64,000 bases of DNA from Nemertoderma westbladi (lineage: Eukaryota; Animalia; Xenacoelomorpha), in NCBI GenBank assembly GCA_032718475.1, contig JAUCBJ010008517.1:55181-119180 (forward strand), given 5' to 3'. A program made the translations under genes and the position numbers. The notes beneath the pieces were generated by a model. That model did no database searches and was not told where the DNA came from. It saw nothing but the letters and a program-made list of their open reading frames with translations. Numbering within the stretch: position 1 is the stretch's first letter; the number at the start of each line of letters is the position of its first letter. Positions 12,846 to 55,990 of the stretch are shown here, in pieces.

Positions 12846-12894
12846 GGAAAGAAACTACTCATATAACTCCTAAGTATTAGACTAACCGACTAAC

Positions 12895-30033: not shown

Positions 30034-30067
30034 ATGATGCATCCTGCATTAAACAGAAATGTATCAG
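30034..30067 (+). CDS. Synaptotagmin first coding exon (MMHPALNRNVS)
   Basis: First in-frame ATG after TAG at 29995. Strong donor TCAG|gtaagt, and phase 1 fits exon 2. Confidence 0.7.
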
Positions 30068-33000
30068 GTAAGTTACTTTGTAGGCCTAATGGTATATGAG
30101 GACAGGAAAGGGGGCGGGAGGGGGCCTTGACGCATGCATATCCCCCTTGGCAAATTAATCTATTTTCAGATTTCAGTGATGGATTAAGGGAAAGGAGCTG
30201 GAGCAGGTTACAGTGGCACGCTATTCTACCCAGAACAATAAACGAAAGTAGAGGGAGGATTTTTACTCATTACCCCCCCACCACCACCCGTTACTGGGTT
30301 TATGATTATATATAATATTAATGATATGCTAATTATTTTGAGAACAACCTTTAGGGCAACAACTTAACGTTAATTTGTAATTTAAACACGAGTCGACAAT
30401 TCGTAGGTGATAATATTATTATATTTAACAAGATATTGGTTTTGCTCTCTGCTGCTGTTAACATTGTTATTTTATATAGGCCTACATTATTTATAGTATT
30501 AATATTAATACACTTGCTTACTGAGTAACTGCACGTTGCTTATTAATGCAACTGTGTTATAATTGATATTATTATAATATGGTTTGACGCTTGTGGGTTG
30601 AGCGTTGATTCAACCCCTTGTGACGTGCATCCTCGTTTTTTTCTCCATATTATAATAATAATATCTGGGTATAGCTACAGAATTATATATATTTTTTATT
30701 TTTTTATATGATTAAAGACAGAGGGATTGCGCAAAACAAAGAGTTCATGAAAAACCAAAACAAATGTAAGAAATTTTTGAGGAAAAAAAACCTTTAATTA
30801 ATTGGGAAATAAATTACTTTTCGTTGACGATTCTGTTCCACATTGTTCCACATTGTTCCACACTGTTCCACATTGTTCCACATTGTTCCACATTGTTCCA
30901 CATTGTTCCACACTGTTCCACATTGTTCCACATTGTTCCACATTGTTCCACATTGCTTTATCTTGCTACTTTAAGTGGATATGGTTTCCCAATTAAATAG
31001 ATGATTTAAAATAAAGTACGAAGTGGTTGCAGTTGCGTAGGATCTTTGAGGAGGTAAGTATCAATTAGGGATGCATTTGAGTGTGTGGGTGGCTAGTTCG
31101 GCCAGTGTGTGGGTGGCTAGTTCGGCCAGTGTGTGGGTGGCTAGTTCGGCCAGTGTGTGGGTGGCTAGTTCGGCCAGTGTGTGGGTGGCTAGTTCGGCCA
31201 GTGTGTGGGTGGCTAGTTCGGCCAGTGTGTGGGTGGCTAGTTCGGCCAGTGTGTGGGTGGCTAGTTCGGCCAGTGTGTGGGTGGCTAGTTCGGCCAGTGT
31301 GTGGGTGGCTAGTTCGGCCATTGTGTGGGTGGCTAGTTCGGCCAGTGTGTGGGTGGCTAGTTCGGCCAGTGTGTGGGTGGCTAGTTCGGCCAGTGTGTGG
31401 GTGGCTAGTTCGGCCAGTGTGTGGGTGGCTAGTTCGGCCAGTGAGTTTGTTGGTCAGTCGGTCGGTGGGAAGGCGCGGGTGGGAGGGAAGATGGGAAGGG
31501 AAGGTGGGAAAAAGTGAATGTGGGATGGTGGGTGGGAATGGGGGAAGGTGGATATGGATAAGCTTTTAAAAAACTAAACACTAAACGATATTGTTACCAA
31601 TTTAGGGAATTGAGCAGGTTACAGCGGCGGGGGTTTCTAACCCAAAAAATAAACGATGTTGTTTCCAATTAAGGGAAACGAGCAGGCTATTTGCTTTTCT
31701 AACCAAAACAATATACGTCTTCTCACATTCCCATTCATCTACCCATATTCTCATCCATCCAAAATATTTTCACATTCCCATCTCCCCACATTCCCACCTT
31801 CCCACAATACTAAATTAATAAGATTAAAAATATATATATCTATTATATATGCATTAATTTATTTTATTAGTCCCTAAAACTTATACCTTTTCAACTGAAC
31901 TAAATGGATTTTTTAATTTAATTTGTTTTCACTAAAATATTTTAATTATCACTAAAGTATGTTTTCTTCTTATCAAAAATGTAACTGTATACGATTTAAT
32001 TATGTTTATTGTTTTTGTTAGAATAACGTGCCCCTGTAACTCACTACTTTCCATTATTTAGTGATCAATGATAGATTATAGCGATAGTTAATATTTTAGT
32101 GATCTTCCTGTTAAAATTCAGAGAAAAATAATTATTAGAAAAGTCGATAAATGACCTTAATTGGCTTTTCTCGCTGTTGAAAATATAATTAATTGCAACA
32201 ATAATTATATAGTACTACCCTGTTATTTTATAGTTGAAGTACACAATGTTGCTGTTATTGTGGGGAGCTGTCTAGCTATTGTTTGCGTTATCGTGTTTTC
32301 CCTGGTGTTGTTTATTGTGTTTCGGTGGTACAAACTCCGCCGTCGGAATTCGCATTCAGGTAACGACGGGGAACCGCGTCGCTTAATACCCCGAGACAGC
32401 CACGGTAAACTGGTACAGAGCGCTCATATCAATGAGGTAATGTCATTATTGGGGAAAGTTTATGTTTAGGGTCAGTTACATTATAAGTTTGTTAGGGTTT
32501 GGTATTAAGAATTTTCATTTTGATTCAAAAACTCTTGTTTTGCATATCAAAGTACCTTAATTAGAAAAAATTGACCTTTCAACCACCCCCCCCCCCCTCC
32601 CCCCCACCCCTCATTTCCACACTGCAGAATCATCGATCCAAAATACACCAGAAATAATACGCCGTCTTATATTGATATATTTGGTTTAAACGAATTATTG
32701 TGGAACGTAATACCAGATGCTTTGACACTAAGCTAACCCAGGTTAGTTTAGTTACCGGAACTACTAAAGGGAAGCCAGCTCCCAATTAATCCCGTGCCTA
32801 TGAATAATTTCGGTAATGGCATTGCGCATCAGTTCAGTTTTGTAAGCTATTGTGGCAATCCTTTGTAATCCCTTCCAAACTAATTCCTTGATTTGAATTC
32901 TAGCCGTACCATTTAGAAACTTATAATCTACAGCCCGTGTGATACGACATGGGACGATAATGGGTGGGTGGGTGGGTGGGTGATTGGGTGTTAGTGAAAT

Positions 33001-36000
33001 AATTAATAATTCGACTTTATCGCAGGTAAAGCAATGCGATAGTCCCAGTTCTGACTACGGCAGTCGATCAGAAAAGGATGAAATGCCTCATGAGTTTCCA
33101 ATACGACCTGTGGCATTCAACAGGTTGGTTTATACTTTCAATGTTTCACCACCATATGTACCGTACGCAATGTGCCTGTAAACGCCGTCGATTCCTTAAT
33201 GACGCAGACCAGGTAAAGATGATATAAATTTATTTGACAAAATAATAAATGTTTGAGAAAATTTCAAAATAATGGTCAGGAAAATATATTAAAAGTTCTT
33301 GAGAAAAATATAAATTTACATATTTTAACAAAGCAATTAATATTGTGTCACGTCCACAGTGAAGTTAACGACGACTCGTAAACAAACAGTATAGCGAGCT
33401 ACATTATTATGCCCGCATTCTCGCCCCATGTGAAGAATACCAAGTTTTCACTTTTTCAGTCGAAACTTTACTGAAATTTTATACATGAAGAATTGTTTCT
33501 TTTTTTAAATCTATCCTTAGTAAATGTTTTAAAGCGCTTATTTATATCGTGTACCGTAACCTGTACAAATACTAATTGATGGGTTGATGGAGCTTTTTAT
33601 ACGCAATCAATATTCAACCCTCTCCAGGGAATATCACACAAATAACAGCTGATTAAACCCGAAATAACACCGTAAACTTTCTATTAACTTTAGTTTATTG
33701 TTTTGGTTACAATATCGCGACACTGTACATACATCTATTGGTGTATTGGTATCTTAACATTGAGAGGAGATAATATATACACCCCACCACTACCCCTTCC
33801 CCTCTGTCTCCGCTCCTGACAGCCAACCGCCAGTACAATATATTTCAGCGATCTCTTAACTAACACTTGTTATGTAAATTACAAGGAGACTAAGATCAAA
33901 GAGTAATTATGTATGTAGGCCTACATTGGCGTTAGAGTAGAACCGTGCATGTCGTTCCTATAATATAAAGCAGGGAGCGGTAATACAGTAGAGTTGTAAC
34001 CACTAACCCGCTCACGGGCTACTGAGTGATATATATATATATACAGTATATCCTTCACTAGTAAAAGCTCTGTGTCCTCTGTGTTTCTCTAAACCCTGTG
34101 TTCTGTGTAAATTTTGAATTGTATTATTATAACATCGGTTGTAAAAGGCTATATTACTTATTATCTGTACGGAATTTGGCACGTACCTGTCGCCAAATAA
34201 TCTCAATTGCACCCAGTTGATCGCATTAAAATGTTTTATATCTCCCATTGGGTCGGGGTGATATGACACTCTGCAGTAGCTATAGTTAGTGTGCTATATA
34301 AAGTAACGTGGATGGGAAAAAACAGTAAATATATAAAGTGCCCCTCAGTGCCACAATAATCGTCCCGGTATATTACACAGTGTTGTGCTGTGCAAAATTG
34401 GTTAATTATTATAGATCAATAATCTGTGATTGCGTTGAAGTCTTCCCCCCCTCCCCCCCCCCCCCCCCCCCCCGGGGAGGTTGTATAGCTCGTTGCGAAT
34501 CTCAGAGAACTAAATGTATTCGATTTGGGACAGTTTCTAACGTTGTTGTTTAGAAACCTGTGTTCTAAATTCAATTTAACGCCTGTCATTTAAAGGTCCA
34601 GGAATTCAATATTATTTAAATTGCATTTTATTTCGTTAAAGTTGATTAAATTGGTTGTTTATTCCCTCTCACGTTCTCCTCTTTAGGGGATTGGCCAAAC
34701 CATCAATACCGACCTACGGAAAATGGCATCCGCAATCAGGATATGAATTGAAATTCACCTAAAACTCAGTCCAGGATTTGGTTGATTCGTAGCAAAAGAA
34801 ATTACCACCATATGAATTGAAGAATCTTTTAGGCTCATTAAGCCAAGGAATCGCCTGTTCACCACCATGTTTGATCTTCCACAGTAAACCCTTCCACTCT
34901 GTTTCCTAAATGAATCCCTGTTCACCACCATGGGTGATCTTCCACCTGAAACCCTTCCACTCTGTTTCCTAAAGGAATGCCTGTTCACCACCATGGGTGA
35001 TCTTCCACAGTAAACCCTTCCACTCTGTTTCCCAAGTGAATGCCGGTTCACCACCGTGTGTGATCTTCAACAGTAAACCATTCCACTCTGTTTCCTATAG
35101 GAATGCCTGTCCACCACCATGGGTGATCTTCCACAGTAAAACCTTCCACTCTGTTTCCTAAAGGAATGCCTGTTCACCACCATGGGTGATCTTCCACAGT
35201 AAACCCTTCCACTCTGTTTCCCAAGTGAATGCCGGTTCACCACCATGGGTGATCTTCCACAGTAAAACCTTCCACTCTGTTTCCTAAAGGAATGCCTGTT
35301 CACCACCATGGGTGATCTTCCACAGTAAACCCTTCCACTCTGTTTCCCAAGTGAATGCCGGTTCACCACCGTGTGTGATCTTCAACAGTAAACCATTCCA
35401 CTCTGTTTCCTAAATGAATGCCTGTCCACCACCATGGGTGATCTTCCACAGTAAACCCTTCCACTCTGTTTCCTAAAGGAATGCCTGTTCACCACCATGG
35501 GTGATCTTCCACAGTAAACCCTTCCACTCTGTTTCCCAAGTGAATGCCTGTTCACCACCATGGGTGATCTTCCACAGTAAACCCTTTCACTCTGTTTCCT
35601 ATAGGAATGCCTGTTCACCACCATGGGTGATCTTCCACAGTAAAACCTTCCACTCTGTTTCCTAAAGGAATGCCTGTTCACCACCATGGGTGATCTTCCA
35701 CAGTAAACCCTTCCACACTGTTTCCCAAGTGAATGCCGGTTCACCACCATGGGTGATCTTCCACAGTAAACCCTTCCACTCTGTTTCCTAAAGGAATGCC
35801 TGTTCACCGCCATGGGTGATCTTCCACAGTAAAACCTTCCACTCTGTTTCCTAAAGGAATACCTGTTCACCACCATGGGTGATCTTCCACAGTAAACCCT
35901 TCCACTCTGTTTCCCAAGTGAATGCCGGTTCACCACCATGGGTGATCTTCCACAGTAAACCCTTCCACTCTGTTTCCCAAGTGAATGCCGGTTCACCACC

Positions 36001-39000
36001 ATGGGTGATCTTCCACAGTAAACCCTTCCACTCTGTTTCCTAGAGGAATGCCTATTCACCACCATGTGTGATCTTCCACAGTAAATCCTTTCACTCTGTT
36101 TCCTAAAGGAATGCCTGTTCACCACCATGTGTGATCTTCCACAGTAAACCCTTCCACTCTGTTTCCTAAAGGAATGCCTGTTTACCACCATGTGTGATCT
36201 TCCACAGTAAACCCTTCCACTCTGTTTCCTAAAGGAATGCCTGTTCACCACCATGTGTGATCTTCCACAGTAAACCCTTCCACTCTGTTTCCCAAGTGAA
36301 TGCCGGTTCACCACTATGGGTGATCTTCCACAGTAAACCCTTCCACTCTGTTTCCTAAGTGAATGCCGGTTCACCACCATGGGTGATCTTCCACAGTAAA
36401 CCCTTCCACTCTGTTTCCTAAAGGAATGCCTGTTCACCGCCATGTGTGATCTTCCACAGTAAACCCTTCCACTCTGTTTTCCAAGTGAATGCGGGTTCAC
36501 CACCATGGGTGATCTTCAACAGTAAACCCTTCCACTCTGTTTCCCAAAGGAATGCCTGTTCACCGCCATGTGTGATCTTCCACAGTAAACCCTTCCAATC
36601 TGTTTCCCAAGTGAATGCCGGTTCACCACCATGGGTGATCTTCCACAGTAAACACTTCCACTCTGTTTCCTAAAGGAATGCCTGTTCACCACCATGGGTG
36701 ATCTTCCACAGTAAGCCCTTCCACTCTGTTTACTAAAGGAATGCCTGTTCACCACCATGGGTGATCTTCCACAGTAAACCCTTCCGCTCTGTTTCCTAAT
36801 GGAATGCCTGTTCACCACCATGGGTGATCTTCCACAGTAAGCCCTTCCACTCTGTTTCCTAAAGGAATGCCTGTTCACCACCATGGGTGATCTTCCACAG
36901 TAAGCCCTTCCACTCTGTTTCCTAAAGGAATGCCTGTTCACCACCATGGGTGATCTTCCACAGTAAACCCTTTCACTCTGTTTCCTCAAGTTAAGTTACC
37001 ATGTTTCCCTTTTATCGACCAGTAAACGATGAAAGCCTGGGTTGGGCAAGGCTGCAGCATTTAAATCACTGTGCCCAAATTGTCCTGCCCCATTTAGGGA
37101 TCGAATCGGGGGTTCCTGATTGGATCCCAGGAATGTCACCACAGACCAAGCTGCTCCTGTATATTATATATTATATAAATGTATATATATATGCTGCTAT
37201 ATATAATTACCACCATATCAATTAATTTATATTATTTTCACGTTATTGGTATAAAACATGTATGGGGATTATCTGACGTGACCGTTTTTGGATGTTTGGT
37301 CTCTACTGTAGCTCCTATATTGTAACGAGACCGTTTTATTAATATTCTAACCGTAATAAGTTTGAGGTTGTAGTTGTACAGACAACTTTCAATGATCAAT
37401 CATCGCATGGCAAATAGTCGCAGTTATGTTTATGAATTTTTTACAGAAGCTACAAAGGTATCGCTAACGCCCCATTGATAAGGTCAACGACCTTAACCTA
37501 CCCGACTCCATGGGTCGCCGCCGAACCTAATAGACGATTCAGTTGGGGGGAGGGCGTGGAATCAAGCGCCTCTAGCGGCGTAGCGGAGAATAAGTCAGAG
37601 TCACAAGCGTGCGCCATAGACGAAGGAGTTGTCATGGAGACTCCAATAGACGACTGCGATTACGGATCGCCTATGCTACTCCATGTCGGTCTCCAATACG
37701 ACGCCGATGCTCGTACGCTATTGGTTACTGTCCATCGCGCCTCGAACCTTCGACCAATCAATGGGCGTCTCGACCCTTTCATAAAGGTACAACTAATGCC
37801 GGGTAAACGAGTCAAGGCGAAGACGCGGGTTATTGGCCAGTCTACCAACCCGGTTTATAACGAGACTTTCCAGTTCGTCAACATTAAACCGGCAGACCTC
37901 CGCGAGGTGGCGCTGCACTTTATCGCATTGGACCACGACCGGCGCCGTAAGAATCCTGTTGTTATTGGCGAATCGATGTTCCCCTTGGAGAGGTTCGATA
38001 CCACTGGTAACCATGGTCACGTTGTTACCATGGAAATATTTGAGATAAATTCCCAGGTTTGATTATTTAAAGTAATCCCTTTGTGTGGGGCGAGTCATGT
38101 AAGTCCTCCAGGTGAGCCTTAGCGTAGGGGTAATTATTGGAGCCGCCTTTCGTCGTCGTGGTCAAAAATGTTTGAAAGCGAATAAGTCGGTAAATCTTTA
38201 ATGAAATGGAACATAACTTGGTAAAAGTAAAAGTAAAAACATGTATTCTATAATAAATTTTGAAATTCTACACACAGACAGACTTTTATAGTTAATCTGT
38301 CGACCGCTAGGGGGCGAATAACTAGGTCCACTAATCGTACCTCTTCGGAAAGACTCATGTGGACTTAAGTGCTGCGCGAAGTTCCCACGTACTTGTCTTT
38401 GAATAATTCTCTCTATTTGTTTAATGACTGAAATGCAATTCGTATATTATTTATGGTTACGGTCGGTAACGGTACGATACATGGTATAACAATCACTTTA
38501 TCCCAACGAAATATAAGTGGACAGAAAGCATAATGGTTTTTATCTTACAGTTAGATATTCGTAGCTGGTATTATATTTCACGTCATTGAGCACCAGTATA
38601 ATTGACTTTATGAATAAACACTTATCTCCCTTGTTTGTTATTATTGAATTATTAATGCGATAGATTTATCGATCTTTACCTTTCTATTATTATATACCAA
38701 CTACAGTTAGATAGGCTGTGCATATGCTGTGCGAACAGTATACAGAGCACGTTTCCCGAGCATATTTCGTCGAGGCACACATACCACAAAGTGTTAAAAG
38801 ATCTATTTGATTGGCTTCACTTGGCCAGTATTAATTTATTGTACAAAATTATTTTTCCATTATATTTCCCAATATGTCCCTTTCCTAATACACCACTTTT
38901 CTAATAATATGTTACTTTACCAATGAAGAACTTTTCCAATATGTAACATGTTGAGCATGTTATTGTTTGATTTTTTTGGAAGACCCTAGTGGCTAATTGT

Positions 39001-42000
39001 TGGACGTTAATGCCCTGATCTATTTATATTTTATTTGTAGGGTGGTGTGGTGCGGGGTGTGTACTACTCTGTGAGTTCTGTGTTTGTTTGGAGTTGTGGA
39101 GTGACTAAGTGAGTACAGTACTAAATAAAGCGTTGACCTAACCCACTCTCTTACATAATTCCTGTGTGGTCAATATCAATGTACACATATTTTTCTATGT
39201 TATTGAGAAAGTGGTACATTTTCACTTTTAGATAAATCTAGGATAGGTGGAATTTGTGACAATACCCAAAACTTATGACAACTCTCAACCACAGTTTGTT
39301 ATCACCGTTTTTGGGTGTTGTCACAAATGCCACCTATCCATAAATATAAAATATGGCAAGGTACACGTCCGATTTATATTTGATAATAAAATATAGAATG
39401 ATTTACATAGATGGTTATATATATATATTAATAATAAATAAAGTATGTTATCATTAAACAATAAATCCTGTGTTACTGCTGGTGAATAATACCTATAACT
39501 TAATTCACTCTTTCGATTTGTAATTTCGCATGTGACTGACTGCACCACACCCTATTTACCTATTTACAATTTTTATATCATATAATATAATGTATCCTGC
39601 TATGACGACCACATTCTGTCCAATCCCTCGAAATTTTACCTTCGAATATTAATTACATCACCATATCGCCCGCCCACCTTTCAGTTATATTTCTCTATTT
39701 AATCCCAATTGCTATTAATCAATTATTGATTACCTCCAATAATATAGGCAGTCGGGTTTATTACTCCTCAGGCTAATCCTATTATTATACCTCCATATCC
39801 TTCACTCATTACAGCTTAATGATTCTGGTGCGAGTCAGGACAGTGAGCCATCTGCGAACGCTTATAATTAGACTAGAACTGCCTTCCTAATGATTGTGGG
39901 GGTGTGTGTGATTATGTAGGTAACTAATAATTACGGCTTCTAACACGATGGGATTTTGCGGGATACGCTGTTGTTATGATTAAAGCTGTTAGTTGTGGCT
40001 ACATTTCTGTTGAATGTAGGAAGGCCTCAGAAATCGAGACATGTACGTTCGTAGATGTTTCCCTCCATCAGTCCCTCGTTAAAGTTTAAAGGCTAATATA
40101 TTGGAGTCGCTTTTACATCATGCTAAAGACCATAGATGTAACCAACTGTACAGTTCATGTGATACGCAATATCCGCTTATGAATTATGAGGCGGTTATCA
40201 TAGCAAATAAACATACTCACTCACCCGACGTCATTATTTTTTTAATATCACGTTCTCTTTCAAATTTTAACTTTAATTGTCCAGTTTTTGTTTGTTTAAT
40301 ATTGCTTTGCCTACGTGTGTTTGCTTAGATGTAATAGTTACACATCTCGGGCTGTTCTTGCTAAATGGAATGGGGCAATCGCGATAAATCGCCTCCTACG
40401 TATCTCCCGTACAAATCTCTGAAGGCTCTTCTCACTTACGTCATGAATACGTAATGGGCTTCAAAGCGATGTCGTGCTGTATAAACCGAACCCCATTAAT
40501 GCAGTAATGCAATTATCTTGAGAACGGTTCGAGAAAGAGCTTGTAAGTTCGCGCGCGGAATGTTAAGGAACGGAGTAATCGCTATATCGCCACACAGCCC
40601 GATTACTAATCCGCTACGGAAGAAGGAAAAGTCAAATTAAAATGATTTCTCAACTGATCAGGTGCTTCACTAATATTATATAGGCTATACAGGCGCATCG
40701 ATAACCCCGCCACACGCGGCCCAGTAACTATTTCCTTTTACTAAGCGAAACATAACAGCATGAGTTAGAGTTACTACAGTAAGTTAGATGATAATAGTTA
40801 AATCATTTACTGCAGAAAACTTCACTCCTTGGAATATGTGGAAGATTTAACTACCGAAGTTTGTGGGTCTTTGTTAATTATTTTCAGTAAATGAAATACA
40901 GCTGGGCTGATAGTGATAATGGAACTGTAATAAATTATATTTTTGATATAACTTTGTTCAGAATCATGAAGCATGTCACAGGCGGTTGAACCAGCGCTAT
41001 ACGCGCGTTTCGGATTGTTAGGCCTCATCAGTTGTAGTGCTCAAATCCAATTCATTAAATTAATATCACCTGGCTGCAATACTCGAGCTGAATATTTATT
41101 TATTAGTACTTTCCTCCTGTTTCACTCTAACATACTTGAGGCCGGTAGGTCCGCTGTTAGAGATAGGATATGCAATTTATGACTGCCTGTTCTATAGAAG
41201 TGGACCATGACCTACTAAATATATCTTTAGTAGGTCATGAGTGGTCTAAATACGTATATAAAGTCAGTGTCAGTGTCAAGCCAATGTCAGAGGAAAGTGG
41301 CTCAACTGGTGAACCGTTACTGAAGATGCATAATATCCATCAATATCATTCATCAACAATTTAGTGGGTCAGAGTAAAACGCGGATCCGGATCCGCGTTT
41401 TACACCTTCCCCAATTTAGTGTATGCCGTACTTCTGAATTTACTGTCTTACAAGAGTGGTAAACCATAGTTTATATGAGTAATGTCTACGTTTTGTTAAT
41501 GTTTGTTTGTTTATTTTAGTATCCGGATATTAATGTTTGTTTGTTTATTTTTGTATCCGGATATTAATGTTTGTTTGTTTATTTTAGTATCCGGATATTA
41601 ATGTTTGTTTGTTTATTTTAGTATCCGGATATTAATGTTTGTTTGTTTAAAATTTTAGTATCCGGATATTAATGTTTGTTTGTTTATTTTAGTATCCGGA
41701 TATTAATGTTTGTTTGTTTATTTTAGTATCCGGATATTAATGTTTGTTTGTTTATTTTAGTATCCGGATATTAATGTTTGTTTGTTTATTTTAGTATCCG
41801 GATATTAATGTTTGTTTGTTTGTTTTAGTATCCGGATATTAATGTTTGTTTGTTTATTTTAGTATCCGGATATTAAAGTTTGTTTGTTTATTTTAGTATC
41901 CGGATATTAATGTTTGTTTGTTTATTTTAGTATCCGGATATTAATGTTTGTTTGTTTATTTTAGTATCCGGATATTAATGTTTGTTTGTTTATTTTAGTA

Positions 42001-45000
42001 TCCGGCTATTTGTGGTGAATTGCTGCTTTCATTGACGCACAAGTCAGACACCAACAGTCTCATTGTTGGAGTGCTTAAAGCTCGGAATCTCTCGTGTCGC
42101 AACATCACAGGTCTTAACGGTGAGTTTATTAATCATCTGATACTGTGGCCAGTAGTGATGTAGGCGTAGGGATGTAACTGACTAACCTATTCCTAACTAA
42201 TCTTTTCTTTTTTCATGGCATATAAATTATGTTGTTTACGAGACATTACAGTAGCAGCGCAGCACATAGGCAAGAGTTCAAAATAATAATAGATAGAAAT
42301 GAGCAAATGTTTCACCTTGACTCATAGGGAGTTAGTGGCGTGAAATGGTCGAAAATACCATGACGTGTTTAGTGGGTTTATTTAAAAAAAATTATTAAAT
42401 TAAAAAAAAAAAAGAGAAACAGGTTACAGTAGCAGTGTGTTCTAACCAAACCAAAACAATTTTTCTCAACTTGTGCATCTCTATGAACTGAGATTTTGAT
42501 GACGTACCCGATCGAGACCACAAACGATCTTCTTGAGCCAAATATTGATGATCCGATGGCACAGCGATGGTGCTGGCTCATCGGAAGTACGGCTTTAGTG
42601 AGACATCTACAATATCTCATAGGTTCACCATTTTGAAACACATCCAGTATTTGATGGATTACAAGAGTTTAGATTGCATTATGCAATGAAACAATGCACA
42701 CTAGTATTAGTTGATCCTGAAGATGATTTTCAGGGGAAAATTTGAATTTCCCGCCAGTTATTTAAAATATTCTGAGTCCCCAGAATTTAAGTCGAGTTAC
42801 ATTGAAATTTGGCAAGAGGCATCGGTGTGGGTTGCTAAACGTAACATTTTTGAACTTTCGGCCAGAATTATAATTTTAATCTCAAAATCAGACAGCTGAT
42901 ATTTTCGCTGCTGGGGTGTTCGTGGGCGGCGATTTCATTTCCTTACTCAGTTTTGATGTTTAGCGAAATCCATCCTGTCGTCTATCTACCCGTCTGGCTG
43001 TCTGTCGCATGTCGGTTTGGCGAATACTAGTATGATGGGAAACACTTTTTTTTTCAGAAAAATAATGTTTATTTGATTTTTCATGCAATTTTGATGCAGT
43101 ATAATATTATCAAACTAAACAAACAGCTTGAGAACTAATAACTTTCATATTCGGAATCGCCATCAAAATCTACACAAAAATCGACCAAAAACCCTTTTTT
43201 TATATTTTGACCTACAGTATAATTTCAATACAGTCCTTTGGGGAATACTAATTAGGGCTGGCAATCCCGGAGGGTTATTGAAATCCCGGGATTCCGGGAT
43301 CAGAAATGGTCCAATCCCGGGATCCCGGGATTAATCCCGGGATTTAGAATTTCAGGAATAATGTAGGTGAAAAAATACTTGTGTCAATTAATAGCAATGA
43401 ATTTCCTTTTTTTAATATTAATATTAGGTATCTATTACTGATACTGTTAAAGTAGTTAACCTATATTTAACTAATATAAAGTAGTTAACCTATAGTTAAC
43501 TATAGTTAACTACAGCCCATGCACAATAACATTTAGGAATCGCTTGTTGGCCTTTGACGTCCATTCATCCATGGTAATAGTAAACCGTATCCCATGAGAC
43601 TTTGCGCTCAATATTTCAGTTTTGACAATTGTTCGGCATTCTTCAGCGAATTTCTTAATATGCGAACTGACTGAATTATGGCTGAATTATGGTGATATTG
43701 GCAAGGTGTATCCAGACCTTTGAAAAAGACGACGTAAATCACACGATGTCTCGAACACAGAAAATGGAAGGCCATCCACTGCTATTAATCTAGCTAGTAC
43801 TGCATTGAGTGAATATTCCTTGGACCCAAAGTAGTTGTCGATTGTTAAAGTTTTTTGAATAGGCCTTGCTTTATTAGTAGATTTAACCTGAGCTTCAGTA
43901 ATATCAGCGGTGTCGTTTTCATTGGAATTGGCGGTAATCTTCTTTTTAAGAAGGTTGGTATTATGCACGGATTTTAGGTGCGTGTGTAGACCTTTTGTAG
44001 ATCCGCCACCACACTTTATTAACTTGTTGCACGGTGAATCACATACTTGAAATATACACTTAGCTACATCCCAGTGTCTAAGGAAGTTCTGCCATACTCC
44101 TTCAGATTTGAAATGTTTAAACTGTCCATCTGCCATTGTTATTATTTATAGAGGCCAACTCAAATTACCGGTAAAGGACCGGTACAACTAAACTACTGTA
44201 AGTATCAGTATCAGAAGCCTATGTCATTGCATAGACAGGTGCGTCCTACTACCACTCAGCCAGTACTGGCCGGTACCGGTATGCATGCACAGTCCAATCA
44301 CATCCGGTATAGTTTCAGTTTGGCCCTATTTTAACAGTGTTACTGGTTTAGGCCTAGCCCTACCTACATGGACATTACTGTCAACCTGTGGAAATGCTTT
44401 AACCAAAATCCCGAAAATCCCGGGATTTTTGTTCTTGAATCCCGGGATTTAGGGATTGCATTTTATTCCGGGATCCCGGAATCCCGGGATTGCCAGCCCT
44501 AATACTAATGGCTTGATCGTTTGCTTGGCTTCTGATTGGCCGTTACCGCGAGAAATTGTTACTTATATTTACGCCCATGTGAAGAATACCAGGATTTCAC
44601 TTTTCGGTCACCTTTTTATTGGAATTTTATATATGAAGATTTGTTTTTATTTTAATTTAGCTTTATTAAGTGTTTTATAACCTTTACATATGCTAATTCG
44701 TTTATTGTTTTGATTAGATTCAACCCTTCTGTAACCTGTGTTTTTGGTGAAAACCTGGTATTCTTCACATGGAGGTAACTGCAAAGTGAAATATAACTGC
44801 AGAAAGTCTGGTATTTTTAACATGGGCCGTATTTACTTTACTTTATCTTTCTCCGTAACTGTTTTATCACCTTTACCAACTGTACTGCGTGGGACCCTTC
44901 ACATTCCCTGTAGCAAAGACGACAGTAATTACATTATTAGCGACAATAGTAACGAAAAAAATTCTGTACGGCGGGTTGCATTACAATATCCTAGAATGAC

Positions 45001-48000
45001 GGAATAATTTAACTAGGTGCTTCCCTTCTCTGCGCCTACGCATACACTGCATAAATCGAATAATTGAACCGGCTAACCAAACCATATCATATCGTCTGTG
45101 TCCGTAACTACAGCCAACCCAATTATACCAAGATGATGCTGCCAGTACGACTGACCTTTGAGATGTGAGATTAGTCGTGCTTCTTTCTTATCTCAGGCAT
45201 GAGACAGGCGAAACTACTTTCATGTAATTAATGGCTGCATAGATAGGTACCGGTACTGAAGGTAGAGCCAACAACAGCAGAATGACGCATATTGCTTTGT
45301 TTCATTCCTCATTAAAACTCCTTAGGGCTTCATTGACAAACACCTGCAGCTTACCGTGAATGGGGCGGGCATAAATCATCGAATATGAAAGGCTGGCCGT
45401 GCGCAGAGCGAATAGTTTGTGGTTTGTGAGGGGTTATTTGTCACTTTAGTTTCCTTATTTCTGGTTATGGGGAAAGCCGAACATACTTTGTTAGTGACTG
45501 TTATGATCGGCTATGCTTCTTGGGCGCAGTACTGCTCGATAGTGAACTCCCTGATAGAAAGGTACCCAGCCCGAGGCTAGTCGGTGGACTTAGCATTTAC
45601 AACTAAGATTATCGAAGTCACTATCCTTTAATTTCACAATAATCGCAAATCGCAAAATTTGTATACTAACCAAAATGTTAACGTCTTACAATTTATTTAT
45701 TATTATTTATATCACAGTGATTCTATAATTTTGAATCAAAATTGCATTGACGGTAGGTCAACTGTATATGTATGCATATTATACAGATATAAAAAAATAA
45801 AAAATGCGATTAAATAAAAATTATAGCTCACCAACTAAGAAGGAGGTAGGTGAAACTATCTCATTTTCAAATGTTATGCAATCTCATTAAGATTTGTAAA
45901 AAAAATTGGGGGGGGGGGGGGGGGGGGGGTGGTGGTGGGGGGTCCAGGTACCATTATAACGACACTACAGTAGAGTATTATATTCCAGAACGTGGTGTAT
46001 ATATTGTAGGAGGGAGTACTACATTGAACTTATTACCAATTCACAAAGGATTTGTTTCCATTTATAATTATTTCTATCGAATTAGTTTTCTGGAATTAAA
46101 ACTCTTCAATTTCTTTCTTCATTACTATACTACATATGTGTATTAAAAACACAAATTAGACGAATTACTAATTCCGTACATTTCTACCGTTACTGTCCGG
46201 GAGCTATTGTCCAGTCGGTGAGCTACTGTATGGGGTGATTATCCGTGGGATTGTCCGGGGGCTATTGTACGGGGATTAGTATCCGTGGGATTGTCCGGGG
46301 GCTACTGTCTGGGGGTTAAGTATCCGTGGGATTGTCCGGGGGCTACTGTCTGGGGGTTAGTATCCGTGGGATTGTCCGGGGGCTACTGTCTGTGACTGTG
46401 GGGTTAGTATCCGTGGGATTGTCCAGGGGCTACTGTCTGGGGGTTAGTATCCGTGGACTGTCCGGGGGCTACTGTCTGTGGGTTAGTATCCGTGGGATTG
46501 TCCGGGGGCTACTGTCTGTGGGGTTAGTATCCGTGGGATTGTCCAGGGGCTACTGTCTGGGGGTTAGTATCCGTGGACTGTCCGGGGGCTACTGTCTGTG
46601 GGGTTAGTATCCGTGGGATTGTCCGGGGGCTACTGTGTGGGGGTTAGTATCCGTGGGATTGTCCGGGGGCTACTGTCTGGGGGTTAGTATCCGTGGGATT
46701 GTCCGGGGGCTGCTGTCTGGGGGTTAGTATCCGTGGGATTGTCCGGGGGCTACAACTGTCTGGGGGTTAGTATCCGTGGGATTATCCGGAGGCTACTGTC
46801 TGGGGGTTAGTATCCGTGGGATTGTCCGGGGGCTACTGTCTGGGGGTTAGTATCCGTGGGATTGTCCGGGGGCTACAACTGTCTGGGGGTTAGTATCCGT
46901 GGGATTATCCGGAGGCTACTGTCTGGGGGTTAGTATCCGCGGGATTGTCCGGGGGCTACTGTGTGGGGGTTAGTATCCGTGTGATTGTCCGGGGGCTACT
47001 GTCTGTGGGGTTAGTATCCGTGGGATTGTCCGGGGGCTACTGTGTGGGGGTTAGTATCCGTGGGATTGTCCGGGGGCTACTGTCTGGGGGTTAGTATCCG
47101 TGGGATTGTCCGGGGGCTACTGTGTGGGGGTTAGTATCCGTGGGATTGTCCGGGGGCTACAACTGTCTGGGGGTTAGTATCCGTGGGATTATCCGGAGGC
47201 TACTGTCTGGGGGTTAGTATCCGTGGGATTGTCCGGGGGCTACAACTGTCTGGGGGTTAGTATCCGTGGGATTGTGCGGGGGCTACAACTGTCTGGGGGT
47301 TAGTATCCGTGGGATTATCCGGAGGCTACTGTCTGGGGGTTAGTATCCGTGGGATTGTCCGGGGGCTACAACTGTCTGGGGGTTAGTATCCGTGGGATTG
47401 TCCGGGGGCTACTGTGTGGGGGTTAGTATCCGTGGGATTGTGCGGGGGCTACTGTGTGGGGGTTAGTATCCGTGGGATTGTGCGGGGGCTACTGTGTGGG
47501 GGTTAGTATCCGTGGGATTGTGCGGGGGCTACTGTGTGGGGGTTAGTATCCGTGGGATTGTCCGGGGGCTACTGTGTGGGGGTTAGTATCCGTGGGATTG
47601 TGCGGGGGCTACTGTGTGGGGGTTAGTATCCGTGGGATTGTGCGGGGGCTACTGTGTGGGGGTTAGTATCCGTGGGATTATCCGGAGGCTACTGTCTGGG
47701 GGTTAGTATCCGCGGGATTGTCCGGGGGCTACTGTGTGGGGGTTAGTATCCGTGTGATTGTCCGGGGGCTACTGTCTGTGGGGTTAGTATCCGTGGGATT
47801 GTCCGGGGGCTACTGTGTGGGGGGTTAGTATCCGTGGGATTGTCCGGGGGCTACTGTCTGGGGGTTAGTATCCGTGGGATTGTCCGGGGGCTACTGTGTG
47901 GGGGTTAGTATCCGTGGGATTGTCCGGGGGCTACAACTGTCTGGGGGTTAGTATCCGTGGGATTATCCGGAGGCTACTGTCTGGGGGTTAGTATCCGTGG

Positions 48001-51000: not shown

Positions 51001-54000
51001 CCTCTCATTTATTGTTTTGGTTGCTTTCAACCCACCTATCTCCTCTGTAACATGCTTTGTAAATAACCTGCCTACAAGTACAGTAGGCATGTAGGCCTAG
51101 GTCCCGGTGTAGGCCAGTAGGCGTTGTCACTTGCTACAGTATCCCAATCAACGTTTGAACGCCGATCAACCGATCAGATAACGATCGGAAATAGAGCGCT
51201 CGATCGGAAATACCGAAATAGTGCCTCAGTACCGACGAATCCACTCCTTTATTCGCTCACAATGCACTGCAAGGGCGCTTTACCGTCGACCGTAACTAAT
51301 TCGATTTTGCAATGGGTCAATTAATTGTTCTGATGAATGATTAAAAATATTATTACGCTATTCTGGTTTCTGGTAGCCCGTTTATTATTACATTTTGTAG
51401 AGTATAAACACCATTTAGTCCACAATGATAATTATGTTATATAGCATAATATTTAACAAACATTTATAAATTATTAATTTATTTATATATAAAACCATTT
51501 ACTAATACACAAACATAATGGGAAAAAAACAGTTTATAATTACAATATTGCATGTAATTTTGGATTATTTTTCGTCTACTGTACACTACTGTATTGTATA
51601 TGCTACATATGCGGCATTGGTGTGTTCTACTGTACCACTATAGCTAAAAATGACAATAACTAAATACATGATTGAATAGGTTTCGTGGTCTTTAGGGTGA
51701 ACATCTTAAGGTTAATGAATAGCGCTATTATGTACAGTAGTATTGGGGTAGTTAGGATTATTAATTAGTACTGTATTATATTGTTAATTAATACCTCCGA
51801 AAGCCATGATTGTGAAACTTTATACTTTTGTTAATAAATTTATTATTGCTGACTATTTAATATTTTATTTGATTATTGTGTATAAATCCGCGGTTCAACC
51901 ACGAAATATTTCACGACAATGTATCGCAACGTTTTTGACAATAGACGTGTTAATGGATCAAGTGTCCCTGAAACCTGAGTTGCATACAGTTGTAATCTGA
52001 CTATCTCAATTAGAATTCATCCCCGTCAAACATAAACTCGACATCTTTTATCTGGTGAAATAGAACAAAGATTATTACATTTAACCTACCGCTGCTGCTG
52101 CAATATGAATGATGATACACAATCTTCCTTAGCAAGCTTCCTGTATATCTTTCGAGATGACCTGTCATCTGTCAAAAAAACATTAAGTGTGTGATTGAAC
52201 AACGTTAGGTTGACATGCAGCGAGGTATGCCCTAAGATCAGCAGCTCATTCGATCTGCTGAACTGAAGAATTTTGTCGGTTAATTACTGAGAGTATTCAT
52301 GAATGTGTAATGTATTGAATTAACCTTTCTGAATGGTGCAGATTCTGCCTCAGGTAATAATGTCAAGTTCACTTGCAAGAGTTCTCGGTATGAAATAATT
52401 TCCAATTCTTAAGCAGCTAGAGCAATTGCTAACTCCGAAAAGTAGCCTACTGTAGCGAAACACAAATAATGAACATTGAATTTATTTACACCCCTCCCGC
52501 CAACACAACTCCTTTCAGGAACTTCAGTCGTGCTACACGCTCCAGCTGTTAATCCATTTCCTTTTTTATCTACTTACAATGTTATCTGAAATCGTAGGGC
52601 TATATCAGTCAGTTGTAATGTAAAAACTGTGCATGCATGACGTGCATGGGTGTCATTGGGAGTAGAAAGCGGGTACGATGGGATTGCCAGAGGAACTCCA
52701 ACACACTCAAGGTGAGAAATCCACCTCCCGAGAGATCATTCCGATTTGACTGGCACTCTGTATATTATATATTTTATCATAAAACCTATCAACCATGATA
52801 TTAATTTTATTTAAAATTTATTAAAATTAACTGATTAGACGTGTTATTACCCGTCAGCTATGCTATGACTACTGTATATGGGTTCATCCAAGCACTTAGT
52901 CTGGGTTAATTGTTAATACATTGTACATGTACACACCATGCCCTGGAATATTTAGTGTTGTAATTCGGTGAAAAATAGATAAGAGTAGTTGTAGATCATG
53001 TTGCATCCATGGACAGCTCTAGAGGAACTCTTGGTCGCATCCATAATGATGATCGGCCCATGTTAAGAATACCCATGTTATATTTCACTTTGTAGTTACC
53101 CCCATGTGAAAAGTACCAGGTTTTCACAAAAAAAACAGGTCACAGAAGGGCTGAATCTATCCAAAACAATAAACTAATTAGTATATGTACAGGTTATAAT
53201 CAGAAATAAGCGCTATAAAACACTTAATAAAGATAAATTTAAAAATTAAAAAATCTTCACATATAAAATTCCAATAAAAAGTCAACCGAAAAGTGAAATC
53301 CTGGTATTCTTCACATGGGCGTGATGATCAGTAATAATATAATAATTAATTCGTTATTATCCCTATCCCAGATCCCTATGTACTCGTTACTATGAGTTGC
53401 AATGGAGAGGTGGTAGAGCAGCGCCATACATCGGTACAAACACAAACTCTCAACCCAATCTACAACGAAACGTTAACCTTCAAACTACCAGACGAAGATA
53501 TTGGACTCGATAATGTTTCGTTTACTATTACGGTTAGTTTCCATGTGATTCGCATTTCATTCTATTTTCATAATCGCAGTTAGGCCTAGTATCATGTTTT
53601 CTTTTACCAAATTAATGGACTCATGGTGCTTATGGATGTTGACTCTGAGACGCTAAATATTTTTAAAAATATGTAACATCTAAAACACGTTCGCAAACAA
53701 ATTACGTTAGGGAACAAACAAAATATGATAAAACAATAACTGGTCAATAGGTAAGATACCAGACTCTCTTCTGTTATGTTTCACTTTGCAGTTTACCACC
53801 ATGTTAAGAATACCAGGTTTTCACTAAAAACCCAGGTTACAGAAGGACTGACTTTAACCAAAACAATAAAATAATTATTAGTATTTTTCGGTCGACTTTT
53901 TATTTGAATTTTATATATGAAGATTTTTTATTTTTTTTTAATTTATCTTTATTAAGTGTTTTATAGCGCTTGTTTCTGTCTTATATAACCTGTACAGATA

Positions 54001-54437
54001 CTAAATTGTTTATTGTTTTGGTTAGATTCAGTCCGTCTGTAACCTGTGTTTTTGGTGAAAACCTGGTATTCTTTACAAGGGGGTAACTTCAAAGTGAAAT
54101 ATAACGATAGAAAGTCTGTTCATATGGGCCACACAAGGGTAAACTCTCATCCCTGATTTTGGTAACTGCATCGGGTGAAATGTAACGAGAACATTATAGA
54201 CCAGTGGCCTAGGATGTTTGTGTATAAAGCGCATGGATTTCGGTTTGATATTATTTTGTTGTGTTTATTTAGGCTATGGACTGCGACTGCGAAACACACA
54301 ACGATATCATTGGCCAGCTGACCATAGGCGGTAATGTGAGTTTACCATTGTCTGCGGCCAATCACTGGCGAGCATTCAGGAAGACGCCAAGAAAGCAGGT
54401 CGCTGATTGGCACACTCTGGTCCCCCCAGAAAAATGA
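30034..54437 (+). CDS. Synaptotagmin (Syt4/11-like), complete, 463 aa; exons 30034-30067, 32234-32436, 33026-33123, 37447-38056, 41999-42119, 53372-53532, 54273-54437
   Basis: Exon lengths sum to 1392 nt with GT-AG junctions in matching phase. Architecture is short luminal N-terminus, TM helix, linker, C2A, C2B and terminal WHTL motif. KTRV, ALHF, GELLLSL and PRKQVADWH recall Syt4/11. Confidence 0.92.
30833..30955 (+). repeat. 10-bp minisatellite (CACATTGTTC)n, ~12 copies
   Basis: Direct reading. Confidence 0.95.
31081..31443 (+). repeat. 24-bp minisatellite GTGTGTGGGTGGCTAGTTCGGCCA x15
   Basis: Direct reading; nearly perfect copies. Confidence 0.97.
32234..32436 (+). CDS. Synaptotagmin exon 2 (TM helix)
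   Basis: Acceptor ttttatag|TT and donor GAG|gtaatg. Translates VAVIVGSCLAIVCVIVFSLVLFIVF followed by RWYKLRRR. Confidence 0.9.
33026..33123 (+). CDS. Synaptotagmin exon 3 (linker)
   Basis: Acceptor tttatcgcag|GTA and donor ACAG|gttggt. Bridges phase 0 to phase 2 as required. Confidence 0.82.
34847..36988. repeat. 63-bp minisatellite, ~34 copies, in synaptotagmin intron 3
   Basis: Unit AAGGAATGCCTGTTCACCACCATGGGTGATCTTCCACAGTAAACCCTTCCACTCTGTTTCCTA, with two interspersed subtypes. Confidence 0.96.
36989..37155 (-). mobile_element. Degenerate tRNA-derived SINE head adjoining the 63-bp array
   Basis: Minus strand shows A-box-like TGGTCTGTGG and B-box-like GATTCGATCC, then CCAACCCAGGCTTTCATC...GGTCGATAAA resembling SINE central domains. 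Confidence 0.4.
37447..38056 (+). CDS. Synaptotagmin exon 4 (linker plus C2A)
   Basis: Acceptor ttttttacag|A and donor CAG|gtttga. Contains LDPFIKVQLMP...KTRV...NPVYNETFQF...LDHDR...IGE. Confidence 0.95.
40981..41040 (-). ncRNA. Degenerate type I hammerhead ribozyme motif (same family as 21.7-22.0 kb)
   Basis: Minus strand reads gcactacaa-CTGATGA-ggcctaacaatcc-GAAAC-GCGC-GTA-tagcgc. Confidence 0.55.
41496..42005 (+). repeat. 34-bp tandem array (15 units) of the exon-5 splice acceptor
   Basis: Unit ttaatgtttgtttgtttattttag|TATCCGGata. The last unit is the real acceptor (AG 41997-41998). Confidence 0.96.
41999..42119 (+). CDS. Synaptotagmin exon 5 (C2B start)
   Basis: Translates YPAICGELLLSLTHKSDTNSLIVGVLKARNLSCRNITGLN. 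Donor AACG|gtgagt. Not present in the ORF track. Confidence 0.93.
43253..44501 (-). mobile_element. Internally deleted hAT DNA transposon with BED-finger transposase remnant
   Basis: 18-bp TIR TAGGGCTGGCAATCCCGG and perfect 8-bp TSD ATACTAAT (43245-43252, 44502-44509). ORF 44136-43687 has VW..F..C..C..STKGLHTHLKSVH and DGLPFS. A shifted frame continues to TITMDEWTS. Confidence 0.93.
44573..44811 (+). mobile_element. Partial copy of palindromic MITE family
   Basis: Matches 53083-53321 (inverted), 53880-54118 and part of 33424-33540. Confidence 0.65.
46240..48555 (+). repeat. 40-bp G-rich minisatellite, ~57 copies, in synaptotagmin intron 5
   Basis: Unit GTCCGGGGGCTACTGT(C/G)TGGGGGTTAGTATCCGTGGGATT, with 41- and 43-bp variants. 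Confidence 0.96.
49186..49871. mobile_element. PIF/Harbinger (Tourist-like) MITE
   Basis: 22-bp TIR GGGGCCGTCCAAGTATGACGTC and 3-bp TSD TTA on both sides. Confidence 0.88.
50325..50600 (-). mobile_element. Old degraded fragment of the same RTE LINE family
   Basis: ATGCACTGGCTGTTCCTCACGGCGAAAGCCATGTCCTGCAAAGCGG and CCCATGCCTTGCCCTTACGTAT match 23930-24290. Confidence 0.7.
53083..53321 (-). mobile_element. Partial copy of palindromic MITE family
   Basis: Reverse complement of 44573-44811. Confidence 0.65.
53372..53532 (+). CDS. Synaptotagmin exon 6 (C2B)
   Basis: Acceptor ccctatcccag|AT and donor ACG|gttagt. Translates DPYVLVTM...LNPIYNETLTFKLP...FTIT. Confidence 0.93.
53760..54118. mobile_element. 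MITE with ~110-bp imperfect terminal inverted repeats
   Basis: CAGACT...TTTCACTTTG...GAATACCAGGTTTTCAC...AACCAAAACAATAAA is mirrored at 54010-54118. Confidence 0.75.
54273..54437 (+). CDS. Synaptotagmin last exon
   Basis: Acceptor gtttatttag|GCT. Translates AMDCDCETHNDIIGQLTIG...HWRAFRKTPRKQVADWHTLVPPEK then TGA. Confidence 0.94.
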   Translation, partial: AMDCDCETHNDIIGQLTIGGNVSLPLSAANHWRAFRKTPRKQVADWHTLVPPEK

Positions 54438-54720
54438 ATTCCAACAAGGAGTATCATTATTATAGACCAACGTTCCCTTAGGAATGGATAGAATTACATG
54501 CACTCCCAAATTATTATGAGTGTGCTGTGCATTGTGTAATGTATATGTTTACATGTTGTATCAATTTGCCGCCACTCTTGGTTGAATTCTCACAATGTTT
54601 CGGCGAAATAATATAGCTACTTTTTTCTGTTAAACTGAAACTTTATCCATGGACACCGAAATGTTTACTAACTATCCTGGATGTTTAAAGACCTGTGGAA
54701 GAAGAGTTTCCGAATCGAAT

Positions 54721-54813
54721 GCGATTGTAAATAAATGTTGTTACGAAACTTGCGTTTGTAAATAAATGTTGTTACGAAACTTGCGATTGTAAATAATTGT
54801 TGTTACGAAACTT
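54721..54813 (+). repeat. 31-bp triple repeat containing candidate poly(A) signals
   Basis: GCGATTGTAAATAAATGTTGTTACGAAACTT x3. AATAAA at 54730 and 54761; third copy has AATAAT. Confidence 0.8.
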
Positions 54814-55620
54814 TGAACAATTACTTAATGGTCGAACGTCTTGTATGTTATATAAAACATTATTTTCCTCTTTATTTTGCTCTTTTATAATAATTCATTA
54901 ATGGTCGTATGTAAAGTGCAGTTTTGGGCACATGCTATATGGTTTTAACAGTAGTGCCGTGTAGAGAAACGGTCTTGTGTTTATGGTTCGTGACTTAACT
55001 AATTGTAAGGCTATCTTTATAAAATTCATTATAGTATAACGATCACATCGTGACCATAGTGACAGAACAACACAGACTAAAAGTACCGTTTAGATAAAAA
55101 CTGATGAGCAATTATTAAATTAGGCGCTGGCTATCAGAATACGGCTCTGGGACTTTAACATATGATGCATAACGTTTTTTTTTCATATAAATTTAGTATA
55201 AATTAATTTAATTAATTTACTTTTAATTAATTTATTTTTAATTAATTTAACTAATTAATTTAATTTAATTTTTTGGTCTGGCTCTATGGTCACTATATAT
55301 GCAGATATGATATTGTACGGTGACATTTTAAGTTCCACCCAACCGTAATGGTTAACGAGTTTCCACTGGGGAGTGTAGTTCTGGGGGGACCGCACTGGAA
55401 ACTCGTCGTAAAACTTCATGCGTAATCCCTGGCCTAACGGCCGAATGAAACTTTACTTTTTAACATTTGTCAAGTAAATTATTATTATTATTTCACTTTT
55501 ATTTATATATTGACCCCGCTGTTATAAATGTCGATTATTGTGCTACAGTAACCTTTTGAATGTCTGTCTGTCGATAGTCCTTATAGTTTCTGATGTAGGC
55601 CTGGCATACAATATAAATAT

Positions 55621-55990
55621 ATTGTGTCAAGTACAATGCACACATCTCCAACCAGACACTATATAACATTGGAGGTGTCTCATTGGTTCCCCCAAGCTTG
55701 ACACTAGAACAAAATCGCCTCCGCTTTGCAGGACATTGCTTTCGCCGTGAGGACCAGCCGGTGCATAGTCTTGTACTTTGGCAGCCTCATGGAGTGAATA
55801 AGCATGGTGGACAGCCCATGACTTTCTTGAGACGCATTTTAGAGGACACTGGCCTTGAAGTTGCGGATGATCTAGCAAATGTCATGGGTGATAGGGAGTT
55901 GTGGCGGCGCAATTTTGTCGATAAGCCGGCACAGCATTCTTAAAAATGCAGCTGCAATGCAGCATGCCGATCCTAGTAGTAGTAGTAGTC
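55621..55990 (+). mobile_element. Short 3' fragment of RTE LINE
   Basis: Near-identical to 26555-26910 and ends in a (TAG)n tail. Confidence 0.9.

What the first reader, a model, noticed from the sequence alone, without database searches (positions are those of the whole stretch)
41496..42005. Fifteen tandem copies of the synaptotagmin exon-5 acceptor; only the last is productive
Seen: the unit is ttaatgtttgtttgtttattttag|TATCCGG(ata), and the true exon begins TATCCGGCT at 41999, so both the array and its source junction are visible. AGs lie at 41518, 41586, 41620, 41657, 41691, 41725, 41759, 41793, 41827, 41861, 41895, 41929, 41963 and 41997; unit 2 has AG changed to TG. Use of the penultimate AG frameshifts to TGA. 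Use of earlier AGs reaches a TAA within two units. Inference: there are 13 intact decoy acceptors, which would give NMD targets or C2B-less protein. Correct splicing would need exon definition to override first-AG choice, or the array may tune expression by copy number.
Basis: seen in the sequence. Interest (0 to 1): 0.85.

Follow-up and report, generated by a model that had tools for sequence, protein, structure and literature searches.

The report
Self-pairing splice-acceptor "mirage" in synaptotagmin
The end of an intron plus the first ten bases of the next exon of an animal synaptotagmin-like gene stand 15 times in a row; the messenger RNA likely uses only the last, genuine copy, as in the "mirage" repeats known from lancelets, and the 14 extra copies are predicted to pair with one another and hide their own splice signals.

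Summary
In detail: 15 units of 34 bp (24 intron, 10 exon bases) precede exon 5 of a synaptotagmin-4-like gene; 13 decoy AGs are intact and each gives a premature stop. It is unlikely to be an assembly artefact: DNA of two samples shows excess depth there. One transcriptome-like contig runs 764 bases past the exon-4 donor, exactly the length predicted for the last AG (798 for the penultimate); the junction letters were not seen. This is a "mirage" minisatellite, a class described in lancelets as harmless to splicing, and this scan found it before in many other genomes. Expression tuning by decoys has no support here. What is unusual: one base makes all 14 decoy junctions palindromic. Folding predicts that they pair two by two, burying decoy AGs (5.8-10.3 kcal/mol to open) while the true AG stays open (0.8), and that an odd number of decoys would bury the true AG instead. 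This parity switch is computed only, and neutral palindrome correction explains the base as well. New member of a known kind; interest 0.3.

The parts
41496..41974 (+). 14 decoy units (34 bp; unit 5 is 37 bp): 24 bases of intron-4 end plus 10 bases of exon-5 start; 13 intact AGs, unit 2 with TG
41516..41533 (.). First of 14 self-complementary junctions (perfect 10-bp palindrome inside an 18-base stretch that pairs with a second copy of itself); covers the decoy AG and the next unit's branch-point-like motif
   Evidence: 14 copies of the 10-mer in the window, 0 outside the array
41975..41998 (+). Genuine acceptor (unit 15): UUAAU motif, U-rich tract, AG at 41997-41998
41999..42119 (+). Exon 5, 121 nt, start of the C2B domain; its base +8 (42006) differs from all 14 decoys; donor GTGAGT
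41877..41878 (+). Extra AG made by a substitution in unit 12, which also removes that unit's UUAAU motif
37447..38056 (+). Exon 4, 610 nt, C2A domain; donor at 38056
   Evidence: Pfam C2 E 2.2e-18; X1 contig covers 37443-38056 with 0 differences and stops at the donor
30034..30067 (+). Predicted coding exon 1 (ATG at 30034)
   Evidence: model only
32234..32436 (+). Predicted exon 2 with the transmembrane segment
   Evidence: weak single-pass membrane family hits below cut-off
33026..33123 (+). Predicted exon 3
   Evidence: the X1 match reaches 4 bases beyond the exon-4 acceptor, the 4 bases that exon 3's end shares with the intron end
53372..53532 (+). Exon 6, C2B middle
   Evidence: Pfam C2 E 4.1e-07
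54273..54754 (+). Exon 7: C2B end, stop at 54437, 3' UTR to the first repeated 30-mer, where a contig is expected to end

Best explanation
This is a real 'mirage' minisatellite, 15 head-to-tail copies of the intron-4/exon-5 boundary, whose 14 upstream copies are likely cut out with the intron because the last acceptor is likely chosen by its tie to the full exon and its donor, likely helped but not governed by the predicted pairing of the decoys with each other. Origin (inferred): a 34-bp tandem duplication with TT at both ends, one substitution at exon +8 that separates the genuine copy from the rest, then amplification of the palindromic unit by slippage or unequal exchange. Shown: the array, the stops after each decoy, the single-base difference, the palindrome. 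Inferred: use of the last AG (contig length), exon definition (from other mirages and CBS 844ins68), masking (folding only).
For: Array and stops. RNA-like run X1: one contig of 1922 nt, depth 127, covers exon 4 exactly and leaves 764 letters 3' of the donor; exon 5 from the last AG plus exons 6 and 7 up to the first repeated 30-mer makes 764, the penultimate AG 798, and the two earlier AGs tried would break after 28. X1 has depth 0 on units 1-2. DNA runs: depth in the bin with units 1-2 is 161, 95 and 159 against 26, 28 and 51 in the unique intron (X2, X3, X4), and an X3 contig from a second individual runs through the first decoy junction. Class precedent: mirages keep AG/GT signals yet do not disturb splicing (PMC3087553 and PMC3902484, passages); a 68-bp duplicated junction in human CBS is skipped in favour of the distal site (PMC2630376, passage). 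TT at both ends of the duplicated piece. Palindrome correction by template switching is a described neutral mutation path (PMC5677150, passages). Against a governing role of structure: one natural acceptor of the gene costs 5.8 kcal/mol to open, as much as the weakest decoy; a one-unit model costs 4.3; the genuine unit's branch-point-like A is itself mostly paired, P(unpaired) 0.18-0.25.
Against: The junction letters were not seen; the inference rests on one contig of one sample, whose genotype at the array is unknown, and on no indel in exons 5-7 or the UTR. Contigs drop minor isoforms, so leakage is not excluded. The one base that separates decoys from the genuine unit ranks 2 of 102 possible substitutions by array folding energy and 3 of 102 by the decoy-versus-genuine gap, and the decoy unit folds better than 298 of 300 shuffled units while the genuine unit and 8 of 8 other arrays tested do not; that is more than an incidental base would usually give, unless palindrome correction made it.
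Confidence: 0.66

Rival explanations
1. Structure-gated acceptor choice: the decoys are silent because they pair two by two into 18-bp helices as they are transcribed, and the genuine acceptor is free only when the number of decoys is even; an odd number would pair the last decoy with the genuine site and expose that decoy's AG.
For: Minimum-energy fold pairs all 14 palindromic junctions in 7 helices and leaves unit 15 out. Opening cost (AG-4 to +3): 13 decoys 5.8-10.3 kcal/mol, genuine 0.8. With the genuine base at +8 in every unit the gap vanishes (penultimate 1.5, last 2.3). Removing one native unit (4 of 14 possible removals tried, 3 settings of temperature and span) raises the genuine AG to 5.2-10.5 and lowers the last decoy to 1.0-2.8; removing two restores 0.1-2.1. 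The window has an even number, 14. Structure masking of AGs is shown in yeast COF1 (PMC3239191, abstract and section 12).
Against: All computed, at equilibrium, without proteins. Published mirages are silent with no such structure reported in the passages read (0 hits for 'secondary structure' in PMC3087553). An even count is a coin toss. Minisatellites change length one unit at a time often (general knowledge), so a strict parity rule would be costly. The genuine branch-point-like motif is also in a helix end.
Confidence: 0.17
2. One reading: decoys are used at a rate that rises with copy number, sending part of the transcripts to nonsense-mediated decay or making C2B-less protein, so the array tunes synaptotagmin dose.
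For: Every decoy gives a premature stop upstream of two further introns. Decoys are identical to the genuine site from -24 to +7 in most units, so a local splice-site score cannot tell them apart. Decay would hide such RNA from contigs.
Against: No X1 contig lies on units 1-2, which at 90% likeness would catch decoy-derived RNA; decoy AGs are predicted to be the least accessible; no sign of conservation was found, and mirages are reported as silent.
Confidence: 0.1
3. Assembly artefact: a single acceptor expanded by the assembler.
For: No long read spanning the array was seen; copy number was not measured.
Against: 4 of 14 decoy units carry private variants; 3 of 3 DNA runs that hold the locus show 3- to 6-fold excess depth on units 1-2, and a second individual carries the decoy junction.
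Confidence: 0.03
4. Microexon use: a unit is read as an in-frame 15-nt exon (AG, 15 bases, then GTTTGT as donor), adding five residues to the C2A-C2B linker.
For: The 15 bases after each decoy AG are open and in frame and are followed by GT.
Against: It would give 779 letters after the donor, not the 764 seen; the donor context is poor.
Confidence: 0.04

Closest known systems
Amphioxus 'mirage' minisatellites (Adh3, globins BflGb6 and BflGb9, troponin C, PGBD5); PMC3087553 and PMC3902484, passages read; the original Adh3 paper was not seen
   Same: Tandem copies spanning an intron-exon boundary, most with the splice signal intact; unit length within the 10-72 bp given for Adh3; terminal copy differs from the internal ones; normal splicing appears to persist.
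   Different: Here the internal units are self-complementary across the AG and the genuine unit is not; the passages read report no such structure. The host is not identified (closest proteins about 40% identical).
Human CBS 844ins68 (PMC2630376, passage read; primary papers not seen)
   Same: Duplicated intron/exon junction; the distal site is strongly favoured and normal mRNA results; the upstream copy differs by an exonic base.
   Different: One extra 68-bp copy, not 14; no palindrome pairing in the passage read.
Structure-masked acceptors of yeast COF1 and UBC13 introns (PMC3239191, abstract and section 12 read)
   Same: A stem hides potential AGs upstream of the true 3' splice site.
   Different: There the stem lies between one distant branch point and the AG and is shown by mutation to be required; here each unit has its own branch-point-like motif, the stems form between repeats, and nothing is shown by experiment.
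Invertebrate synaptotagmin-4-like proteins (crinoid, lancelet; names as given by the sources)
   Same: Single membrane segment and tandem C2 domains; the 463-aa model aligns over residues 190-458 at 37-39% identity to its best hits among the fetched proteins.
   Different: Distant; no orthologue close enough to tell which base at exon +8 is ancestral. Subfamily was not tested by a tree.

Membership tests
'Mirage' minisatellite | Tandem repeat whose unit spans an intron-exon boundary of the host gene | tested here: met
   24 intron plus 10 exon bases, 15 copies
'Mirage' minisatellite | Many but not all units keep the splice signal | tested here: met
   13 of 14 decoys keep AG
'Mirage' minisatellite | Regular splicing is not disturbed | tested here: met
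   Indirect: contig length 764 equals the last-AG prediction to the base; one sample, genotype unknown, minor forms invisible
'Mirage' minisatellite | Length differs between alleles | tested here: inconclusive
   A second individual has the junction; its contig is 2 bases longer in net over 41382-41542 and ends where a variant in its first unit would make it end, but copy number cannot be read from contigs
'Mirage' minisatellite | Internal units homogenised, boundary unit excluded | tested here: met
   All 14 decoys share one base at +8 that the genuine terminal unit lacks; 97% matches
Structure-masked 3' splice site (COF1 type) | Stable stem predicted over the unused AGs, true AG outside | tested here: met
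   Prediction only
Structure-masked 3' splice site (COF1 type) | Breaking the stem activates the hidden AG; restoring it rescues | not testable with these tools
   Needs minigenes and probing
Structure-masked 3' splice site (COF1 type) | One distant branch point upstream of the stem | tested here: inconclusive
   Each unit has a UUAAU motif 19 bases before its AG; no branch point was mapped
Regulated poison acceptor coupled to nonsense-mediated decay | Unproductive site gives a premature stop upstream of further introns | tested here: met
Regulated poison acceptor coupled to nonsense-mediated decay | The unproductive isoform is made and is regulated or conserved | tested here: inconclusive
   No decoy-bearing contig in the one RNA-like run; no close relative to test conservation

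The most novel reading that the evidence does not exclude
A parity switch: the repeat silences its own decoy acceptors by pairing them two by two, so alleles with an even number of decoys splice normally while alleles with an odd number bury the genuine acceptor, expose the last decoy and lose full-length synaptotagmin. Splicing would then read whether a repeat count is odd or even rather than how long it is, and the population should be enriched for even alleles.
Probability: 0.12. Interest if true: 0.8.

Novelty: new member of a known kind. Interest (0 to 1): 0.3.

Why it matters
As a mirage it is ordinary: the class is in print since the lancelet work and this scan has met it in many genomes. 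Its value is as a test case. How a cell ignores a row of acceptors identical to the true one over 31 bases is not explained in the mirage passages I read. Here one base separates decoys from the genuine copy and switches strong self-pairing on, which lets exon definition and RNA structure be separated cleanly: one substitution or one unit removed. If the parity prediction held, it would be a new way for a repeat polymorphism to act on a gene. I found no such report: 0 papers held all terms, and the listings showed none by title or abstract start; the library lacks most subscription papers.

Tried and rejected
No whole genome is held, so the frequency of mirages in this genome was not measured; the scan's index has no notes on it. 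No RNA holder is listed as such; X1 is treated as RNA because it covers exon 4 to the donor and has depth in only 13 of 30 bins, none in the unique intron bins. Reads or contigs were not seen on the acceptor side itself, so the junction letters, minor decoy isoforms and the copy number in each sample stay open. The z-score of -14 and -9.5 for DNA are inflated because those shuffles destroy the repeat; I rely on the unit-shuffle control, which used one sampled unit from each of 8 other arrays out of the 26 other rows. Plain AG unpaired probability was dropped as a measure because the one-unit model also scores 0.02; opening energy was used instead. Word-based protein search found no hit among 602 candidates; the HMMER search found none close enough (45% at most among the best 150) to tell the ancestral base at +8. 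The ESM Atlas gave no answer. PMC1783408 is not held. No note of this scan held all of the words for palindrome or structure masking of mirages. A candidate extra exon at 34688 has stops in all three frames and was dropped. Recursive splicing was rejected: the units give AG|TA, not AG|GT. No supplements were read; the alignment in Additional file 4 of PMC3087553 could show whether other mirage units are self-complementary.
Full report
Observation. Thirteen decoy AGs are intact, unit 2 has TG, and the last AG is at 41997. One further AG at 41877 comes from a substitution in unit 12. Every decoy leads to a stop within 17 codons. The unit is 24 intron bases plus the first 10 exon bases; unit 14 differs from the genuine unit at one position, exon +8, and all 14 decoys share that base.

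Gene. Seven exons (30034-30067, 32234-32436, 33026-33123, 37447-38056, 41999-42119, 53372-53532, 54273-54437) give an open frame of 463 aa with GT-AG at all six introns. Exons 4 and 6 match Pfam C2; exon 5 matches the start of C2B in solved synaptotagmin-7 and -4 chains. Of the ten HMMER hits looked up, two clusters carry the name synaptotagmin-4-like (crinoid, lancelet), one synaptotagmin-7-like, one synaptotagmin-11, and the rest other names or none; identity is about 40%. The subfamily label is the sources' and was not tested by a tree. The window is rich in minisatellites (27 rows), so an array on a splice site is not by itself improbable.

Is it real? Four runs from three samples hold exon 4 by word index. 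In the three that behave as DNA, depth in the bin holding units 1-2 is 161, 95 and 159 against 26, 28 and 51 in the unique intron; this shows several copies, not a number. X2 is identical to the window over 2805 bases and may be its source. X3 and X4 are one other individual (44 differences in 2634 bases); an X3 contig runs from 41382 through the first decoy junction to 41542, so that individual has at least one decoy. Its end point and net length would fit a variant in its first unit like the one the window has in unit 5 (inferred; letters not seen).

Which AG is used? X1 behaves as a transcriptome: one contig of 1922 nt covers 37443-38056 without a difference and stops at the donor, and the unique intron bins and units 1-2 have depth 0. 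The contig has 764 letters beyond the donor. Exon 5 from the last AG, exon 6 and exon 7 up to the first 30-mer that occurs twice, where such a contig is expected to end, add up to 764; the penultimate AG gives 798; two earlier AGs tried would break the contig after 28. The match to the base makes use of the last AG likely. Limits: one contig, one sample, genotype at the array unknown, junction letters unseen, minor forms dropped.

The palindrome. The shared base makes each decoy junction a perfect 10-bp palindrome (14 copies in the window, none outside the array) within 18 bases that pair with a second copy: -23.5 kcal/mol decoy with decoy, -16.3 decoy with genuine, -9.1 genuine with genuine. 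The fold pairs the 14 junctions in 7 helices and leaves unit 15 out. Opening AG-4 to +3 costs 5.8-10.3 kcal/mol at the 13 decoys, 0.8 at the genuine site and 1.9-5.8 at the gene's five other acceptors. With the genuine base in every unit the gap is gone. Against arrays of shuffled units the decoy unit is reached by 2 of 300, the genuine unit by 93 of 300, and 8 of 8 other arrays tested are unremarkable. Of 102 single substitutions the observed one ranks 2nd by energy and 3rd by gap. With 13 decoys the genuine AG rises to 5.2-10.5 and the last decoy falls to 1.0-2.8 in 12 of 12 cases computed (4 removals, 3 settings); with 12 decoys the native pattern returns.

Results against a governing role of structure. 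All of it is equilibrium folding. A working acceptor (33026) costs as much as the weakest decoy, and a one-unit model costs 4.3. The genuine unit's branch-point-like A is mostly paired. At a 60-base span the gap shrinks to 4.8-6.3 against 1.1 (3 of 13 decoys computed). Correction of a near-palindrome to a perfect one by template switching is a described mutation path (PMC5677150, passages) and would give this base with no selection; DNA hairpins between units could also favour amplification. Which base is ancestral could not be told.

Mechanism. Most likely (0.66) a tolerated duplication, amplified as a minisatellite and removed with intron 4. Each unit has its own UUAAU motif 19 bases before its AG, so scanning from the unit-15 motif meets 41997 first; the question is which unit is chosen. 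Only the last is followed by the whole exon and lies nearest the GTGAGT donor. That exon sequence decides between duplicated acceptors is recalled from classic duplication experiments (no call); the CBS case supports it in print. Pairing likely lowers decoy use further. Rivals: structure-gated with parity (0.17), leaky tuning (0.10), microexon (0.04), artefact (0.03).

Comparison. The name and the two lancelet papers came as a lead from earlier notes of this scan; I read the passages myself. [quoted passage not shown] Four of five features are met here and one is inconclusive. It works like a mirage and is a member; it may also work like the yeast COF1 masked acceptors, but membership there needs experiments. 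The scan's index lists at least a dozen like arrays in other genomes (unchecked notes).

Verdict. Observation confirmed, interpretation partly supported, new member of a known kind. Interest 0.3, carried by the computed parity prediction (probability 0.12, interest 0.8 if true).

Noticed in passing
window 46222-48546: The 40-bp array in intron 5 holds, 55 times, the same 10-mer that spans the exon-5 acceptor; all 69 copies in the window lie in this array or the acceptor array. It lacks a pyrimidine tract. Chance is possible; in principle it could pair with a leftover decoy.
   Followed up: partly
window 34845-36990: The 63-bp array (34 copies) in intron 3 has pyrimidine-rich words ending in AG in most units (13 and 30 exact copies of two words); they are not copies of the exon-4 acceptor.
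   Followed up: partly
window 16900-17913, minus strand: An open frame of at least 338 codons in a neighbouring gene; the 36-bp array at 17614-17870 is a coding 12-residue repeat inside it; only a weak Pfam hit below cut-off.
   Followed up: partly
window about 23740-24640 (-), 25983-26876 (+), about 55620-55990 (+): Closely similar 3' fragments of a LINE-like reverse transcriptase element; two lie in opposite orientation 1.3 kb apart (the third by eye).
   Followed up: partly
window 1-12860 and 56728-64000: The gene pair sits between two long satellites (44 bp x 293 or more; 23 bp x 316 or more) that run off both ends of the window.
   Followed up: no
window 54720-54813: Three copies of a 31-bp unit in the likely 3' UTR, each with an AATAAA-like word; possible repeated polyadenylation signals.
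   Followed up: no
window 14062-14475, 14886-15310, 43262-44502: Elements with long inverted ends rich in CCCGGGAT-like words, likely miniature transposons (by eye).
   Followed up: no
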